A stretch of 64,000 nt of DNA from Deltaproteobacteria bacterium (GCA_005879585.1 VBKG01000312.1:4400-68399), one strand, 5' to 3'. Positions 54,792-59,748 are shown, numbered from the stretch's first letter. Notes: generated by a model not told the origin, from the letters alone. Numbers and translations are program-made.

Positions 54792-55856
<1,065 letters not shown>

Positions 55857-56300
55857 CTACTTCACCGCCTTGATGCGGCGGGGCGCCCGACCGTCGTCGA
55901 AGGTCTCGGGCTCGGGATTGCGCAGGTGGCGCTCGGCCACCTCGACGGCCTGCCGGGCCCGGTCGGGCAGCCGGGTCAGGATGTCGACGAAGCGCGTCCA
56001 GCGGTCTTGGTCGGCGTCGGCCAGCTCGTACAGCCGCATCGCGCCATCGATGTCCTTGCGCTTCAACGCCGCGTCGCCGAGCGTGAGGAAGCGGTCGCGC
56101 GGCAGCGGCACGGAGCCGAGCTCGCAGATGCGGACGGCATCATTGATGCGGTTCCGCTCCATCAATCGGTCGGCGAGACCCGTCCAGTCGCCCGCCGTGA
56201 CGAGCTCCGCGTTTCGCACGAAGAGCTTCATGGCGGCGTCGAGGAAGCCTCGCTCGAGATAGCGGCGGCCGACGAGCACCTCGGACTGACTGGCAGGCAT
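55857..56300 (-). CDS. Hypothetical protein
   Basis: 147 aa; strong RBS AAGGGGGGG before ATG 56300; its TAG is in frame with hisC. Confidence 0.5.
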   Translation of the reverse strand: MPASQSEVLVGRRYLERGFLDAAMKLFVRNAELVTAGDWTGLADRLMERNRINDAVRICELGSVPLPRDRFLTLGDAALKRKDIDGAMRLYELADADQDRWTRFVDILTRLPDRARQAVEVAERHLRNPEPETFDDGRAPRRIKAVK

Positions 56301-56479
56301 CAGGTCGCCCCCCCTTGGGGTCACGAACCGTCAACTTACTGGCGCCGTGTGGCGTTTGCAAGACAAACAGACGCACGTCGAACCGCACAGCACTTGCACG
56401 ATCGACGCGTTCGGAGCGCTGCGTTGACGCTAAAGCCGAGCGAAGGCGCTGCCGATAACCATCCCGCTGCTGCGCGACG

Positions 56480-56731
56480 ATGAAGCTCAACATCACCTAC
56501 AGCGCCTACCGCGAGCTGGAGATGATCCCGCAGGTTCCGCTGCGTCACATCGGCGAGGCGATCATCGGTCTCGCCGAGGACCCCTATCCGCCGGGCTCGT
56601 CTCTGCTGCAGGGCATCGGCGGCTGCTACTACCTCGCGATCGACAACTACTACATCCTCTACCACATCGATGACGACGGGGCGTTGACCGTGCTCGGCGT
56701 CCTCGACGGTCCGTACCACCCGCTGCATTAA
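56480..56731 (+). CDS. RelE/ParE-family toxin-like protein (orphan; no adjacent antitoxin)
   Basis: 83 aa; EDPYPPGSSLLQGIGGCYYLAIDNYYILYHIDDDGALTVLGVLDGP fits the RelE/StbE/ParE pattern ENPRPPGxKKLKG..YRIRVGDYRIIYEIDD..IxxIGHR. Confidence 0.6.
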   Translation: MKLNITYSAYRELEMIPQVPLRHIGEAIIGLAEDPYPPGSSLLQGIGGCYYLAIDNYYILYHIDDDGALTVLGVLDGPYHPLH

Positions 56732-56890
56732 GTAAACTCCTCGGGGGCCCGTGCGGTGCTCGCGCGCTTCGCGCGCTGCGCTCCTCCGATGCCCCCGAAC
56801 CCCGTCGGCCAGGATGGCAGCTCTCGCTGCCGGCCTCGCGTGGCCAGGGCGAACTTCCGCTGTCGCCGCGGTCCCGCTAAGCTCCGCGGG

Positions 56891-59263
56891 ATGGTGACGT
56901 CGCGCCGCCTGCGCCGGGCCGCCCACGCGCTCGTCGTCCTCGGCGTCTGTGCGCTCGTGGCCGCCGGCTGCCGGCGCCAGCCGCTGCCGGCGGCAAAGCC
57001 CGCCCTCCCTCGCGTGGGCGACGCGGTCGACCGCGTGCACGTCCTCATGGTGAACGGCGGCGGGAGCAAGGCGATGAACTACCAGTCGCACCTGCTCCAC
57101 GTGCAGCAGCTCCTCGACGTGCTGCGCCATGCGGGCATCCGGCCTGACCAGGTGTCGGTCTTCAGCGGCGACGGCGCCGACCCGGCCGAGGATCTCGCGG
57201 TGCGCGAGGTCCAGCCCGAGGCGGAGTTCTGGCTGCTGCGCGGCACACGGCTCGAGCACCAGCTGGCCACGCCGATCACCTACGCCAACTCCTCGGTCCC
57301 CGGCGTCGAGCTGCAGGCGGCCACCAAGGAGAACCTGCGGCGCTGGTTCAAGCGCGCGCACCGTGCGCTCGGCCGCCGCGACACCCTCCTCCTCTACGTG
57401 ACCGACCACGGCCAGAAGAACGCGGAAGACTCGCTCAACAACTCGATCACGCTCTGGGGACCCAAGGAATCGCTTTCAGTGAGCGAGCTGCGCGAGCTCC
57501 TCCGGATGCTGCGCCCCGGGGTCCGCGTCGTCATGCTGATGTCGCAGTGCTACTCGGGAGCGTTCGCACATCTCGTCGCGGTCGAGCCCGACGCGCCGCC
57601 GACCGGCAACCTCTGCGGCTACTTCTCCTCCACCGCCGATCGCCCGGCCTACGGGTGCTATCCGGAGAACCGCGGCAAGGAGAACGTCGGCCACTCGTTC
57701 CACTTCATCCAGGCGCTCGCGATCGCACGCCGCTTCCCCGACGCCCACCTGCAGGTGCTCGTCAGCGACGCCACGCCCGACGTGCCGCTGCGGACCTCCG
57801 ACGTCTACCTCGAGGATCTGCTGCGGCGGAAGGCGGCGGCCGGCGGCGAGGACCTCACCCCGATGGTCGACGGACTCCTGCGCGAGGCGTGGCGGGACAA
57901 GGCGGCGTGGGAGCCCGAGATCCGCCTCCTCGACCGCATCGGACACGCCTTCGGCTGCTTCAGCCCTCGCTCGCTCGCCGAGCTCGACGCCCTCCAGGTG
58001 GGCGACATCACCGACAAGCTGAAGACGTACAAGAGCGCCTGGGAGTCGAGCCTCAAGAGCCTCGCGGGCGAGAACCTCGACCGCTTCGTCGCGTCCAGTC
58101 CGGGCTGGAAGGAGCGAACCGCGCCCGAGCACATCCTCGCGCTCGACGCCGGCGGCACGCGGGCGCTGGCGCGCGCGCTGCTGGTCGACCTCTCCGCGTA
58201 CACCGACGGCGACGTGCCGACGGCGCGGCGGCTCGGCGTCCTCCGGAAGAAGAGCCAGGTGGCGGAATCGGCGTCGTATCGCATGGAGGTCCGCCTGGGC
58301 GTCGTGCTGCGGATGCGCGCGATCCTCACCGCCGTCGCGGGGCGCGTGTACCTGGCGTCGCGCGGGACGCCGGAGGAGCGCGCGGCCTACGAGGCGCTGC
58401 TGCGCTGCGAGGCGCTCGCCCTGCCACCCGCCGACACGCCGCTGCCGGAGTCGACGACCACCGTCGCCGAGCCGTTTCCTCCCTACGAGGACGACGTCCG
58501 GCTCGCCGCGAAGGTGCTGCCCGCCTGGATGGGGATCCGCTTCAAGCAGGCGGAGCAGGAGGCCCGGGACAAGCACCACCTCGAGGCCGGCGCGAGCGTC
58601 GTCGAATCGGTCTATCCGGATTCGCCCGCGGAGGCCGCCGGCGTGCAGGCGGGCGACGTCATCCTCGGCCCGCCGGGCGCGCCGTTCAAGGAGAACCAGC
58701 AGATCCGCGAGTGGACCATGCTGTCCAAGATCGACGAGCCGAAGCCGCTCGTCGTCCTGCGCGGCGATCACGAGGTGCGGCTGACGCTCGCGCCGAAGGC
58801 CTACCCGCTCCAGTGGACGACGGTGGCGGGCCCGCCGAAGGTGGACGCACCGGCGCCCGCCGTCACGCTGACCGCGTACCGCGGCAGCGTGCCGCCCGCG
58901 CTCTCCGACGGCACGTCGCACCTGCTGTTCTTCTGGGCGACGTACTGCGGCCCGTGCAAGGCATCGCTGCCCGAGGTGCTCGCCTTCGAGCGCGAGCGCC
59001 ACACGCAGGTCATCGCCGTGACGGACGAGCTCCGCGAGCAGCTCGATACCTTCTTCAAGAAGTTCGACGCACCCTTCCCCGAGACGGTTGCGATGGACGA
59101 GTACCGCAAGGCCTTCCTCGCCTACGGCGTGAGCGGGACGCCGACCTTCGTGCTGCTCGACGGCACCGGCAAGGTGCGGAGCTACGCGACGGGCTATTCC
59201 GCGGACAAGGGGCTCGGCATCGCGGGGTGGTCGTGGACGAAGCCTGCCCCGGCGGGCGGGTGA
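56891..59263 (+). CDS. Lipoprotein: clan-CD cysteine peptidase-like (legumain C13 / caspase-like His-Cys dyad) + PDZ + TlpA-like thioredoxin (CGPC)
   Basis: Lipobox VAAGC; YVTDHG and MSQCYSGAF dyad context; PDZ GVQAGDVILG; WATYCGPCKASLPEV redoxin motif. Confidence 0.8.
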   Translation: MVTSRRLRRAAHALVVLGVCALVAAGCRRQPLPAAKPALPRVGDAVDRVHVLMVNGGGSKAMNYQSHLLHVQQLLDVLRHAGIRPDQVSVFSGDGADPAEDLAVREVQPEAEFWLLRGTRLEHQLATPITYANSSVPGVELQAATKENLRRWFKRAHRALGRRDTLLLYVTDHGQKNAEDSLNNSITLWGPKESLSVSELRELLRMLRPGVRVVMLMSQCYSGAFAHLVAVEPDAPPTGNLCGYFSSTADRPAYGCYPENRGKENVGHSFHFIQALAIARRFPDAHLQVLVSDATPDVPLRTSDVYLEDLLRRKAAAGGEDLTPMVDGLLREAWRDKAAWEPEIRLLDRIGHAFGCFSPRSLAELDALQVGDITDKLKTYKSAWESSLKSLAGENLDRFVASSPGWKERTAPEHILALDAGGTRALARALLVDLSAYTDGDVPTARRLGVLRKKSQVAESASYRMEVRLGVVLRMRAILTAVAGRVYLASRGTPEERAAYEALLRCEALALPPADTPLPESTTTVAEPFPPYEDDVRLAAKVLPAWMGIRFKQAEQEARDKHHLEAGASVVESVYPDSPAEAAGVQAGDVILGPPGAPFKENQQIREWTMLSKIDEPKPLVVLRGDHEVRLTLAPKAYPLQWTTVAGPPKVDAPAPAVTLTAYRGSVPPALSDGTSHLLFFWATYCGPCKASLPEVLAFERERHTQVIAVTDELREQLDTFFKKFDAPFPETVAMDEYRKAFLAYGVSGTPTFVLLDGTGKVRSYATGYSADKGLGIAGWSWTKPAPAGG

Positions 59264-59310: not shown

Positions 59311-59748
59311 ATGGCGAGGCGCCCGGCCGATCTGCCCGACGAAGACGAGCCGAAGGACCGGGTCCTTCACACCCGCATCCCCGAGTCGCTCGAGGATGCG
59401 ATCAAGAGCAAGGCGCGTCGTCTGCGCATCCCGGTCTCGAACCTCGTGCGGAACGTGCTCGAGCAGACGTTCCAGCTCGTCGAAGACGTGGTCGGCGACG
59501 GCCTCGAGATCGCCAGCACAGCCAGACGGGGCGCGGCGCGCGTGCGCCAGGCGGCGACCGGCGTCGGCAGCCAGGCTGCCGGCATCTACGGCTGGCAGGA
59601 GCTGATACTGAACCGCGACGAGCGATGCGGGCATTGCGGTGTGGAGCTCGATCGTGGGGCTCGTGCGTGTCGCAGCCTCTCGGACCGGCCGGACGCGGCG
59701 CCCGTGTTTCTGTGCCCGGTGTGCGTCGCGGAGGTCGGCAAGGGCTGA
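59311..59748 (+). CDS. Ribbon-helix-helix (CopG/Arc-like) DNA-binding protein with C-terminal zinc ribbon
   Basis: HTRIPESLEDAIKSKARRLRIPVSNLVRNVLEQ RHH signature; CGHCG..CPVC; 145 aa. Confidence 0.7.
   Translation: MARRPADLPDEDEPKDRVLHTRIPESLEDAIKSKARRLRIPVSNLVRNVLEQTFQLVEDVVGDGLEIASTARRGAARVRQAATGVGSQAAGIYGWQELILNRDERCGHCGVELDRGARACRSLSDRPDAAPVFLCPVCVAEVGKG

What the first reader, a model, noticed from the sequence alone, without database searches (positions are those of the whole stretch)
56301..56890. Orphan RelE/ParE-like toxin gene without a cognate antitoxin
An 83-aa protein matches the RelE/StbE/ParE fold signature (..DPYPPGS.LQGIGGCYYLAIDNYYILYHIDDDGALTVLGVLDGP). Neither the 180-bp upstream region nor the 160-bp downstream region encodes a plausible antitoxin; the only ORF is 50 aa, Arg-rich and antisense-like. 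An RHH-type DNA binder, the usual antitoxin class, exists 2.6 kb downstream (59311), but it is separated by the large lipoprotein gene.
Basis: partly seen in the sequence, partly recalled or inferred. Interest (0 to 1): 0.5.

Follow-up and report, generated by a model that had tools for sequence, protein, structure and literature searches.

The report
Solo acidic RelE-fold protein of Binatia
The gene is real and has the RelE toxin fold with no antitoxin, but it is probably not a stray toxin: it belongs to a strongly conserved, vertically inherited family in the uncultured phylum Binatota that has lost the toxin's basic catalytic residues and sits behind a conserved flagellar-type (sigma-28-like) promoter.

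Summary
The 83-aa ORF at 56480-56731 (+) exists as described. Its predicted structure (pLDDT 89.6) matches RelE toxins (TM 0.75-0.81), although Pfam ParE_toxin scores below threshold. No antitoxin is adjacent here or next to homologues in about 60 loci covering four or more genomic contexts. The RHH protein at 59311 is not near the gene in any other locus.

The "orphan toxin" reading is probably wrong:
- The family is nearly confined to Candidatus Binatia and syntenic with housekeeping genes.
- It is more conserved than its neighbours (dN/dS 0.15 versus 0.26-0.30).
- It is acidic (pI about 4-5, versus 9.4-10.7 for the nearest canonical toxins).
- It lacks the equivalents of E. coli RelE Lys52, Lys54, Arg61 and Arg81.
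- It has its own invariant residues: Cys49, His62, His80 and a C-terminal His in 93 of 96 members.

All 37 clade A and B loci carry T[CAT]AAG-N15-nCCGAnnn upstream (window: TAAAG-N15-GCCGATAA, 56431-56458). This matches the sigma-28/FliA promoter consensus and is unique in the window.

Best reading: a domesticated, non-toxic RelE-fold protein, possibly in the motility regulon. Its function is unknown. A His-based RNase activity is not excluded.

The parts
56480..56731 (+). Gene for an 83-aa acidic (pI 4.6) RelE-fold protein. Predicted topology: beta1 (3-5), alpha1 (7-14), alpha2 (18-33), beta (40-42), beta (49-54), beta (57-63), beta (69-76), then a flexible C-terminal tail DGPYHPLH ending in an invariant His.
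   Evidence: ORF; fold; family alignment and invariant residues; pI; dN/dS 0.147.
56431..56435 (+). -35-like element TAAAG (gcTAAAG) of a sigma-28/FliA-type promoter.
   Evidence: Conserved as T[CAT]AAG in 37 of 37 clade A and B loci. Matches the -35 TCTAAAG of P. aeruginosa fliC (PMC12784957).
56451..56458 (+). -10-like element GCCGATAA, an 8/8 match to the sigma-28 consensus, exactly 15 nt after TAAAG.
   Evidence: TGCCGATA is invariant in clade A. The spacer is 15 nt in 37 of 37 loci although 13-17 was allowed. The full motif is unique in the window, with 0 occurrences in 100 dinucleotide shuffles. All 19 strict matches in 544 kb lie upstream of this gene.
56459..56479 (+). Inferred transcription start (about 56465-56467) and a short leader of about 14 nt with no Shine-Dalgarno sequence. 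In relatives the -10 element ends only 10-22 nt before the ATG, so the mRNA would be leaderless or nearly so.
   Evidence: Inferred from the geometry of the fliC promoter, where the -10 element spans -15 to -8, and from the sequences. Not tested experimentally.
56732..56890 (+). Downstream spacer before the lipoprotein gene. It has no conserved ORF and no antitoxin.
   Evidence: The 48-aa ORF has no positional homologue in the other loci. The downstream neighbour differs between clades.

Best explanation
This is a member of an undescribed, lineage-specific family, mainly in Candidatus Binatia/Binatota, of domesticated RelE-fold proteins rather than a toxin that lost its antitoxin. An ancestral RelE/StbE-type toxin lost the Lys/Arg residues that bind ribosomal RNA and mRNA and catalyse cleavage, and it became acidic. 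It therefore no longer needs an antitoxin (inferred). It was kept as a single-copy, vertically inherited gene under strong purifying selection (shown). Its former active-site face now carries a new conserved set: Cys49 and His62, which I infer to be cross-strand neighbours, plus Thr70, Tyr51, Tyr58, His80 and an invariant C-terminal His83. That face is most likely a protein-, ligand- or metal-binding site (inferred). In the two main Binatia clades the gene appears to be transcribed on its own, as a short-leader mRNA, from a conserved sigma-28 (FliA)-type promoter. That would place it in the late flagellar/motility regulon (inferred from sequence only).
For: - Fold: AlphaFold2 pLDDT 89.6; Foldseek top hits are RelE toxins at TM 0.75-0.81.
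- Solo everywhere: no adjacent small partner in the hisC-type context, the DinG/thiEGS context, the cysS-dnaB-recR context or the folD context.
- Vertical inheritance: 45 loci in GTDB species representatives, almost all Binatia or 'Deltaproteobacteria' MAGs. Synteny with the aminotransferase holds in every clade A/B locus whose contig reaches it, down to 51% aminotransferase identity.
- Selection: protein identity is 77-94% versus 71-88% (aminotransferase) and 61-90% (155-aa neighbour). Median dN/dS is 0.147 versus 0.298 and 0.263.
- Loss of toxin determinants: pI 4.0-5.4 in 25 of the 26 aligned members, with 2-7 Lys+Arg; one member, P0096, is neutral at pI 7.3. The nearest canonical toxins have pI 9.35-10.7 with 15-22 Lys+Arg, and E. 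coli RelE has pI 9.67.
- Residue replacements: E. coli RelE K52, K54, R61 and R81 are replaced by Y, A, Y and G/P (RelE sequence verified; catalytic roles from PMC5027501).
- New invariants: C49, H62, T70, H80; C-terminal His in 93 of 96 members.
- Small, discrete family: only 32 representatives at 50% identity with E<=1e-10 among 1.84 billion proteins; canonical toxins join only at about 1e-9.
- Promoter: T[CAT]AAG-N15-nCCGAnnn in 37 of 37 clade A and B loci with an invariant spacer. It is unique in the window, with 0 of 100 shuffles. All 19 strict hits in 544 kb are upstream of this gene. The consensus comes from PMC12784957.
- Flagella: Binatota encode flagella except in orders Bin18, HRBin30 and UBA1149 (PMC8262859). 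The clade without the motif includes a UBA1149 genome, L051.
Against: - No experiment or expression data exists, and the function is unknown.
- Loss of RelE's Lys/Arg does not prove loss of nuclease activity. HigB, YoeB and YafQ use His/Glu/Tyr, and HigB's catalytic D90-Y91-H92 includes its C-terminal His (PMC5027501). This family's invariant terminal His aligns with the column of RelE Tyr87.
- The sigma-28 spacer is 15 nt here versus 14 in P. aeruginosa fliC.
- I could not check whether flagellar genes in the same genomes carry the motif, or whether this MAG encodes fliA.
- The clustering of Cys49, His62, His80 and His83 is deduced from beta-hairpin register, not measured on coordinates. The tail has pLDDT below 50.
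- An antitoxin encoded elsewhere in the genome cannot be excluded from a 64-kb window.
Confidence: 0.6

Rival explanations
1. It is still an active toxin: an RNase using HigB/YoeB/YafQ-like His-based chemistry (His62, His80, terminal His83). It would be kept harmless by tight transcriptional gating from the sigma-28-type promoter, by an unlinked or non-canonical antitoxin, or by narrow substrate specificity.
For: The invariant C-terminal His falls in the column of RelE Tyr87. HigB needs its C-terminal D-Y-H and His54 and does not depend on basic residues (PMC5027501). Strong conservation of polar residues on the former active-site face. Acidic RNases of the same broad fold class exist, such as RNase T1 and Sa (from memory).
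Against: Net charge is about -7 with only 3 Lys+Arg, so binding in the rRNA-lined ribosomal A site is unlikely. Tyr79 and Asp76, the would-be D-Y-H equivalents, are not conserved outside clade A. No partner gene appears in any of at least four contexts. Phylum-wide vertical inheritance and dN/dS of 0.15 are atypical of TA toxins.
Confidence: 0.2
2. It works like a ParE-type protein: a protein-targeting modulator of DNA gyrase or another DNA-metabolism enzyme rather than an RNase. It would have been domesticated as a regulator.
For: The Pfam hit is to the ParE_toxin model. ParE structures are also retrieved, at TM 0.67-0.77. Two of the conserved contexts are DNA-metabolism neighbourhoods: dnaB-recR-[gene]-...-rmuC and a divergent DinG-like exonuclease-helicase.
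Against: RelE structures fit better than ParE structures, with rmsd 1.8-2.3 A versus 2.9-5 A. The main Binatia context is an aminotransferase, not DNA metabolism. No ParD-like partner is present. Neighbourhood association is weak evidence for a monocistronic gene.
Confidence: 0.1
3. It is a decaying remnant of a RelBE or ParDE module whose antitoxin was deleted: a non-functional pseudo-toxin.
For: Canonical catalytic residues are absent and the Pfam score is below threshold.
Against: dN/dS is 0.147, half that of the adjacent housekeeping aminotransferase. 24 columns are invariant across 26 sequences reaching down to 48% identity. Synteny is conserved in several lineages. A promoter is conserved.
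Confidence: 0.03
4. The CopG-like RHH protein at 59311-59748 is the cognate antitoxin acting in trans.
For: Sub-threshold CopG_antitoxin match, E=1.8e-4. It lies 2.6 kb downstream on the same strand.
Against: It was not found within 5 kb of the homologue in any other locus. The intervening lipoprotein occurs only in the two closest relatives, and their contigs end before the RHH position. The RHH protein carries its own C-terminal zinc ribbon. An acidic RelE-fold protein is a poor match for a typical antitoxin C-terminal tail.
Confidence: 0.03

Closest known systems
RelE/StbE-type ribosome-dependent mRNA endonuclease toxins (E. coli RelE; M. tuberculosis RelE1 Rv1246c and RelE2/RelG Rv2866)
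   Same: Same fold and topology: TM 0.75-0.81, rmsd about 1.9 A. The N-terminal motif T-x-S-A-x-[KR]-E-L-x-x-[LI]-P, the DP-x-P loop, the [YW]-x-[IV]-[IVL]-Y strand and the 83-90 aa length are shared. These are the nearest sequence relatives outside the family, at E of about 1e-9 in the profile search.
   Different: Acidic rather than basic (pI 4.6 versus 9.4-10.7). Lys52, Lys54, Arg61 and Arg81 equivalents are replaced. No C-terminal helix or HRRDxYR motif; the protein ends in ...H-[PT]-[LVI]-H. No RelB-type antitoxin. Vertically inherited and syntenic rather than sporadic and mobile.
HigB, YoeB and YafQ (His-dependent members of the RelE superfamily)
   Same: Conserved His residues on a beta-strand and at the extreme C-terminus. 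HigB's catalytic His92 is its last residue and YoeB's His83 is its second-to-last (PMC5027501).
   Different: Those toxins are paired with antitoxins, and as I recall they are basic and bind the ribosome. Structural similarity is lower (HigB2 TM 0.67-0.69). The D-Y-H triad is not conserved here.
ParE gyrase-inhibiting toxins (ParDE modules)
   Same: Same Pfam model (PF05016, sub-threshold) and same superfamily fold.
   Different: Poorer structural fit than RelE, no ParD partner, and shorter than the ParE structures retrieved (83 aa versus 91-103 residues).
Sigma-28 (FliA/SigD/WhiG) class III flagellar promoters
   Same: -35 TAAAG and -10 GCCGATAA, an 8/8 match in the window. The element sits immediately upstream of the start codon, with a fixed spacer.
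   Different: The spacer is 15 nt rather than 14. Clade B has a weaker -10 element (nCCGAAYn). The gene it drives is not a known flagellar or chemotaxis gene.
'Orphan' or solitary toxins reported in TA surveys (for example TASmania; Leplae et al. 2011; OrtT)
   Same: A toxin-family homologue without an adjacent antitoxin (one search lists this literature).
   Different: Solitary toxins in those surveys are, as far as I know, generally sporadic single-genome occurrences. This one is a conserved orthologous family with its own signature, conserved synteny and a conserved promoter.

Membership tests
RelE/ParE superfamily (fold level) | Compact alpha/beta fold: beta1, two N-terminal helices, then a 3-4-stranded antiparallel sheet (microbial-RNase-like). 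| tested here: met
   AlphaFold2 pLDDT 89.6, pTM 0.80, with the expected element order. Eighteen PDB hits have E<=1e-3, all RelE, ParE or a pneumococcal toxin-antitoxin module (6af3/6af4).
RelE/ParE superfamily (sequence level, Pfam PF05016) | Score at or above the Pfam gathering threshold of 23 bits. | tested here: not met
   19.7 bits, E=1.3e-3. No NCBIfam model matches. A minority of homologues carry a precomputed PF05016 hit.
RelE-type mRNA endonuclease toxin | Catalytic or transition-state residues equivalent to E. coli RelE Lys52, Lys54, Arg61, Arg81 and Tyr87. | tested here: not met
   The aligned columns hold Y51, A53, Y58, G77/P78 and H83. The RelE sequence was verified. The roles of Lys52/54, Arg81 and Tyr87 come from PMC5027501; that of Arg61 is from memory.
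RelE-type mRNA endonuclease toxin | Basic surface for binding 16S rRNA and mRNA in the ribosomal A site. | tested here: not met
   pI 4.58, with 3 Lys+Arg against 10 Asp+Glu. The family ranges over pI 4.0-5.4 (one member at 7.3), versus 9.35-10.7 for canonical neighbours.
Type II toxin-antitoxin module | Adjacent, co-transcribed antitoxin gene upstream or downstream. | tested here: not met
   None in the window. None next to homologues in at least four contexts.
Type II toxin-antitoxin module | Toxicity on expression, neutralised by the antitoxin. | not testable with these tools
   Requires an expression assay.
Type I or type III TA (RNA antitoxin) | Antisense or repeat RNA antitoxin next to the toxin gene. 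| tested here: not met
   No Rfam hit at E<=1. No tandem or direct-repeat array. One weak terminator-like site on the minus strand, within chance expectation.
ParE gyrase-inhibitor toxin | ParD partner and inhibition of gyrase. | tested here: not met
   No ParD- or RHH-type gene is adjacent in any locus. Gyrase inhibition is not testable here.
Sigma-28 (FliA)-dependent promoter | -35 TAAAG and -10 GCCGATAA elements. | tested here: met
   gcTAAAG at 56431-56435 and GCCGATAA at 56451-56458. Unique in the window with 0 of 100 shuffles. Conserved in 37 of 37 clade A and B loci. Consensus from PMC12784957.
Sigma-28 (FliA)-dependent promoter | Canonical spacer (14 nt between TAAAG and GCCGATAA in P. 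aeruginosa fliC). | tested here: inconclusive
   The spacer is 15 nt, invariant in 37 of 37 loci. That is one nucleotide longer than the reference promoter.
Sigma-28 (FliA)-dependent promoter | The host encodes FliA and flagella, and bona fide class III genes carry the same motif. | not tested
   Only the literature statement that most Binatota orders encode flagella (PMC8262859).

The most novel reading that the evidence does not exclude
A RelE-superfamily toxin fold has been permanently domesticated in a bacterial phylum as a non-toxic, antitoxin-free, acidic small protein. It belongs to the sigma-28 late-flagellar regulon and acts through a remodelled former active site, a Cys/His cluster plus an obligatory C-terminal His. 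It could act, for example, as a metal-dependent or protein-binding regulator of flagellar gene expression or assembly. As far as my searches found, this would be the first housekeeping-type, regulon-embedded derivative of a RelE toxin.
Probability: 0.3. Interest if true: 0.7.

Novelty: new variant of a known kind. Interest (0 to 1): 0.52.

Why it matters
Genome annotation pipelines label these proteins "RelE mRNA-degrading endonuclease" (the JGI names), and TA surveys would count them as orphan toxins. If the domestication reading is right, this family shows that a selfish-element toxin fold can be turned into a conserved, lineage-wide cellular protein that needs no antidote. It also gives a defined sequence signature for separating such derivatives from real toxins: acidic pI, loss of the YRxR / DYR / HRRDxYR basic positions, and a C-terminal His. 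The sigma-28-type promoter gives a direct, testable handle on function in an uncultured phylum, and a first candidate promoter motif for Binatota.

Tried and rejected
- NCBIfam and PADLOC scans of the protein and its neighbours found nothing.
- A profile search against PDB sequences gave spurious top hits to protein A repeat constructs. The RelE and ParE hits were only E=0.05-0.3, so I relied on structure comparison instead.
- The 155-aa TPR-like divergent neighbour is not a plausible partner. It is present only in clade A and has no homologue in clade B loci.
- The 92-aa ORF downstream of the clade C homologue recurs only in a subset of clade C and matches no Pfam family.
- The gene upstream of P0118 is folD, not an antitoxin.
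- tblastn of the small flanking ORFs was mostly Arg/Ala-rich off-frame noise.
- Apparent fusion proteins turned out to be frameshift products, a spurious repeat match, or canonical toxins with mis-called starts: P0109, P0114, P0129, P0141, P0152.
- The generic promoter/terminator scan found no sigma-70 promoter.
- Literature searches for a sigma-28-controlled RelE-like protein returned nothing relevant. The first was polluted by "release" and "relevant".
- Sigma-32 and sigma-54 readings of the upstream motif were considered by eye and dropped, because the spacing and hexamers do not fit.

Full report
**Observation**

The window holds an 83-aa ORF at 56480-56731 (+) with the quoted peptide.
- It is compositionally a real gene: GC3 is 0.90 against a window GC of 0.715.
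- It cannot be longer, because an in-frame stop lies 7 codons upstream.
- Sequence similarity to RelE/ParE is weak. Pfam ParE_toxin gives E=1.3e-3 and 19.7 bits, below the 23-bit cutoff. NCBIfam and PADLOC give nothing. PDB phmmer finds M. tuberculosis Rv2866 at E=0.004.
- The AlphaFold2 model built on a 26-sequence alignment is confident (pLDDT 89.6, pTM 0.80) with a beta-alpha-alpha-beta-beta-beta-beta topology.
- Foldseek against the PDB returns RelE toxins first: M. tuberculosis RelE1 and RelE2, E. coli RelE and archaeal RelE, at TM 0.75-0.81 and rmsd 1.8-2.3 A. ParE and HigB2 come lower.

So the RelE-fold observation is confirmed.

**No antitoxin, here or anywhere**

The flanks contain only Arg-rich off-frame ORFs.
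- The 47-aa upstream ORF is about 55% identical in the two closest relatives, where the RelE-like protein is 93-94% identical. It is therefore non-coding.
- There is no Rfam hit, no repeat array and no convincing antisense element.

Gene calls around homologues show the same solo state in several unrelated, housekeeping-type contexts:
- Divergent from a hisC-type aminotransferase, with or without an intervening 144-155-aa gene.
- Between a DinG-like exonuclease-helicase and thiE-thiG-thiS.
- Downstream of cysS-dnaB-recR and convergent with rplU.
- Downstream of folD.

The lipoprotein downstream in the window is shared only with the two closest relatives. The CopG-like RHH/zinc-ribbon protein at 59311 was not found within 5 kb of any homologue.

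**What kind of gene it is**

The homologue search found 101 clusters, about 70 of them 75-99% identical. In GTDB species representatives the gene occurs at 45 loci. Almost all are Candidatus Binatia, UBP10 or "Deltaproteobacteria" MAGs, and the few other labels look like mis-binning.

Synteny with the aminotransferase holds in every clade A/B locus whose contig reaches it, down to 51% aminotransferase identity. The small protein is consistently more conserved than its neighbours: 77-94% versus 71-88% and 61-90%. Median pairwise dN/dS in clade A is 0.147, versus 0.298 for the aminotransferase and 0.263 for the 155-aa gene.

A second, lower-GC lineage keeps the gene behind recR across 39-74% identity. 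This is vertical inheritance under strong purifying selection. It is neither the sporadic pattern I would expect of TA modules nor decay.

An exhaustive profile search of 1.84 billion representatives found only 32 with E<=1e-10. Canonical toxins start at about 1e-9. So this is a small, discrete family.

**Toxin determinants**

The nearest canonical relatives are textbook basic RelE/StbE toxins (...YRIRVGDYRIIY...V.HRRDAYR) with pI 9.35-10.7 and 15-22 Lys+Arg. E. coli RelE has pI 9.67. This family has pI 4.0-5.4 with 2-7 Lys+Arg, apart from one neutral member (P0096, pI 7.3).

In the joint alignment the E. coli RelE positions are replaced as follows (RelE sequence verified; roles from PMC5027501):

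| E. coli RelE | This family |
|---|---|
| Lys52 | Tyr51 |
| Lys54 | Ala53 |
| Arg61 | Tyr58 |
| Arg81 | Gly77/Pro78 |

The C-terminal helix is missing.

The family has its own invariants instead: TYSAYRE.E..P (a sharpened version of the superfamily's N-terminal motif), Cys49, Tyr61-His62, LTVLGV, His80 and a C-terminal His in 93 of 96 members.

From the hairpin register in the model (strands 49-54, 57-63 and 69-76), Cys49, His62 and Thr70 should be cross-strand neighbours on the face that carries Lys52, Lys54 and Arg61 in RelE. The His-containing tail could fold onto that face. This is my inference. I had no coordinates to measure, and the tail has low confidence.

Caveat: HigB, YoeB and YafQ cleave mRNA with His/Glu/Tyr rather than Lys/Arg, and HigB's catalytic triad ends in its C-terminal His92. 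A His-based nuclease activity therefore cannot be excluded, although the acidic surface argues against ribosome binding.

**A conserved promoter**

Aligning the upstream regions of clade A revealed invariant non-coding blocks. The block next to the gene is T[CA]AAG-N15-GCCGATA. In the window it reads gcTAAAG (TAAAG at 56431-56435), 15 nt, then GCCGATAA (56451-56458).
- The published sigma-28 promoter of P. aeruginosa fliC has -35 TCTAAAG and -10 GCCGATAA, with a 14-nt spacer, and GCCGATAA is the general sigma-28 -10 consensus (PMC12784957).
- The full motif occurs once in the 64-kb window and in none of 100 dinucleotide shuffles.
- In 544 kb of fetched DNA all 19 strict matches lie upstream of this gene.
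- A relaxed form is present in 37 of 37 clade A and B loci with a spacer of exactly 15 nt, although 13-17 was allowed.
- In relatives the -10 element ends 10-22 nt before the ATG and there is no Shine-Dalgarno sequence. That implies a short-leader or leaderless mRNA.
- Clade C and the recR lineage lack the motif and have ordinary ribosome-binding sites.
[quoted passage not shown] Clade C includes a UBA1149 genome. This is consistent but rests on one data point.
- I could not fetch flagellar loci from these genomes to test whether they share the motif.

**Interpretation**

The best-supported reading (confidence about 0.6) is a domesticated, non-toxic RelE-fold protein. It lost the basic RNA-binding and catalytic residues, which is why it needs no antitoxin. 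It was retained for a new function mediated by the remodelled face and C-terminal His. In most Binatia it is probably expressed from a sigma-28-type promoter, which would make it part of the motility regulon.

Rivals:
- A still-active His-dependent nuclease gated transcriptionally or by an unlinked antitoxin (about 0.2).
- A ParE-like protein-targeting modulator, hinted at by the dnaB-recR and DinG neighbourhoods (about 0.1).
- A decaying remnant (about 0.03, contradicted by selection).
- The 59311 RHH as a trans antitoxin (about 0.03, no co-occurrence).

**Comparison and novelty**

At fold level this is a member of the RelE/ParE superfamily. It fails the tests for a RelE-type toxin (catalytic residues, basic surface) and for a type II TA module (partner gene). 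Public pipelines name it RelE. I found no description of a conserved solo acidic RelE-like family, or of a sigma-28-driven one.

I rate it a new variant of a known kind, of moderate interest. The phylum-wide domestication signature and the flagellar-type promoter are the unexpected parts, and both are directly testable.

Noticed in passing
window 56333-56361: Two further blocks are conserved in the clade A intergenic alignment: AACTTA and TTGCAA, 17 nt apart. On the minus strand they read TTGCAA-N17-TAAGTT, a weak sigma-70-like promoter (7 of 12 matches) aimed at the divergent 147/155-aa gene, whose conserved ATG is probably at 56300 rather than the GTG at 56324. A GCA.AGC...TGC partial palindrome lies between the two promoters.
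   Followed up: partly
window 54792-55857 (-): The hisC-type aminotransferase is listed as a 275-aa ORF. However, about 70 conserved N-terminal codons continue in frame up to the stop codon of the upstream 155-aa gene, with no ATG, GTG or TTG among them. This means either a non-canonical start codon or an assembly error. The two genes are in the same frame, separated by one stop codon.
   Followed up: partly
window 56891-59263 (+): A 790-aa lipoprotein (lipobox LVAAGC) with an unusual fusion: Peptidase_C13 (legumain-like) plus PDZ plus a thioredoxin/redoxin domain. It is present downstream of the RelE-like gene only in the two closest relatives.
   Followed up: no
window 59311-59748 (+): A 145-aa protein with a sub-threshold CopG-like RHH N-terminus (E=1.8e-4) and a C-terminal CxxC...CxxC zinc ribbon. 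It has no adjacent toxin-like gene on the evidence seen.
   Followed up: partly
L053/L054 3949-4227 (+); L048, L050, L051 at the equivalent place: A 92-aa ORF matching no Pfam family lies about 150-170 nt downstream of the clade C homologue on the same strand. It is conserved at 34% identity in a subset of clade C and absent from L055-L057 and L007. It could be a subset-specific partner or an unrelated gene.
   Followed up: partly
L007 4364-5020 (-): A PIN plus MazE/AbrB (VapBC-type) pair sits immediately next to the homologue on the opposite strand. This is a bona fide TA module by domain content and is unrelated to the RelE-like gene.
   Followed up: no
L023, L032, L038, L044: Contigs labelled Limnocylindria, Enterobacteriaceae, Ryanbacteria and Nitrosopumilus carry this Binatia-type gene, L023 and L032 with Binatia-type synteny. 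This probably reflects MAG mis-binning or mislabelling.
   Followed up: no
L058-L063 (GC 0.44-0.49): A second, lower-GC lineage keeps the gene in a cysS-dnaB-recR-[gene]-rplU arrangement across 39-74% identity to the window protein, 57-120 nt after recR on the same strand. It may be co-transcribed with recR. The taxon was not identified.
   Followed up: partly
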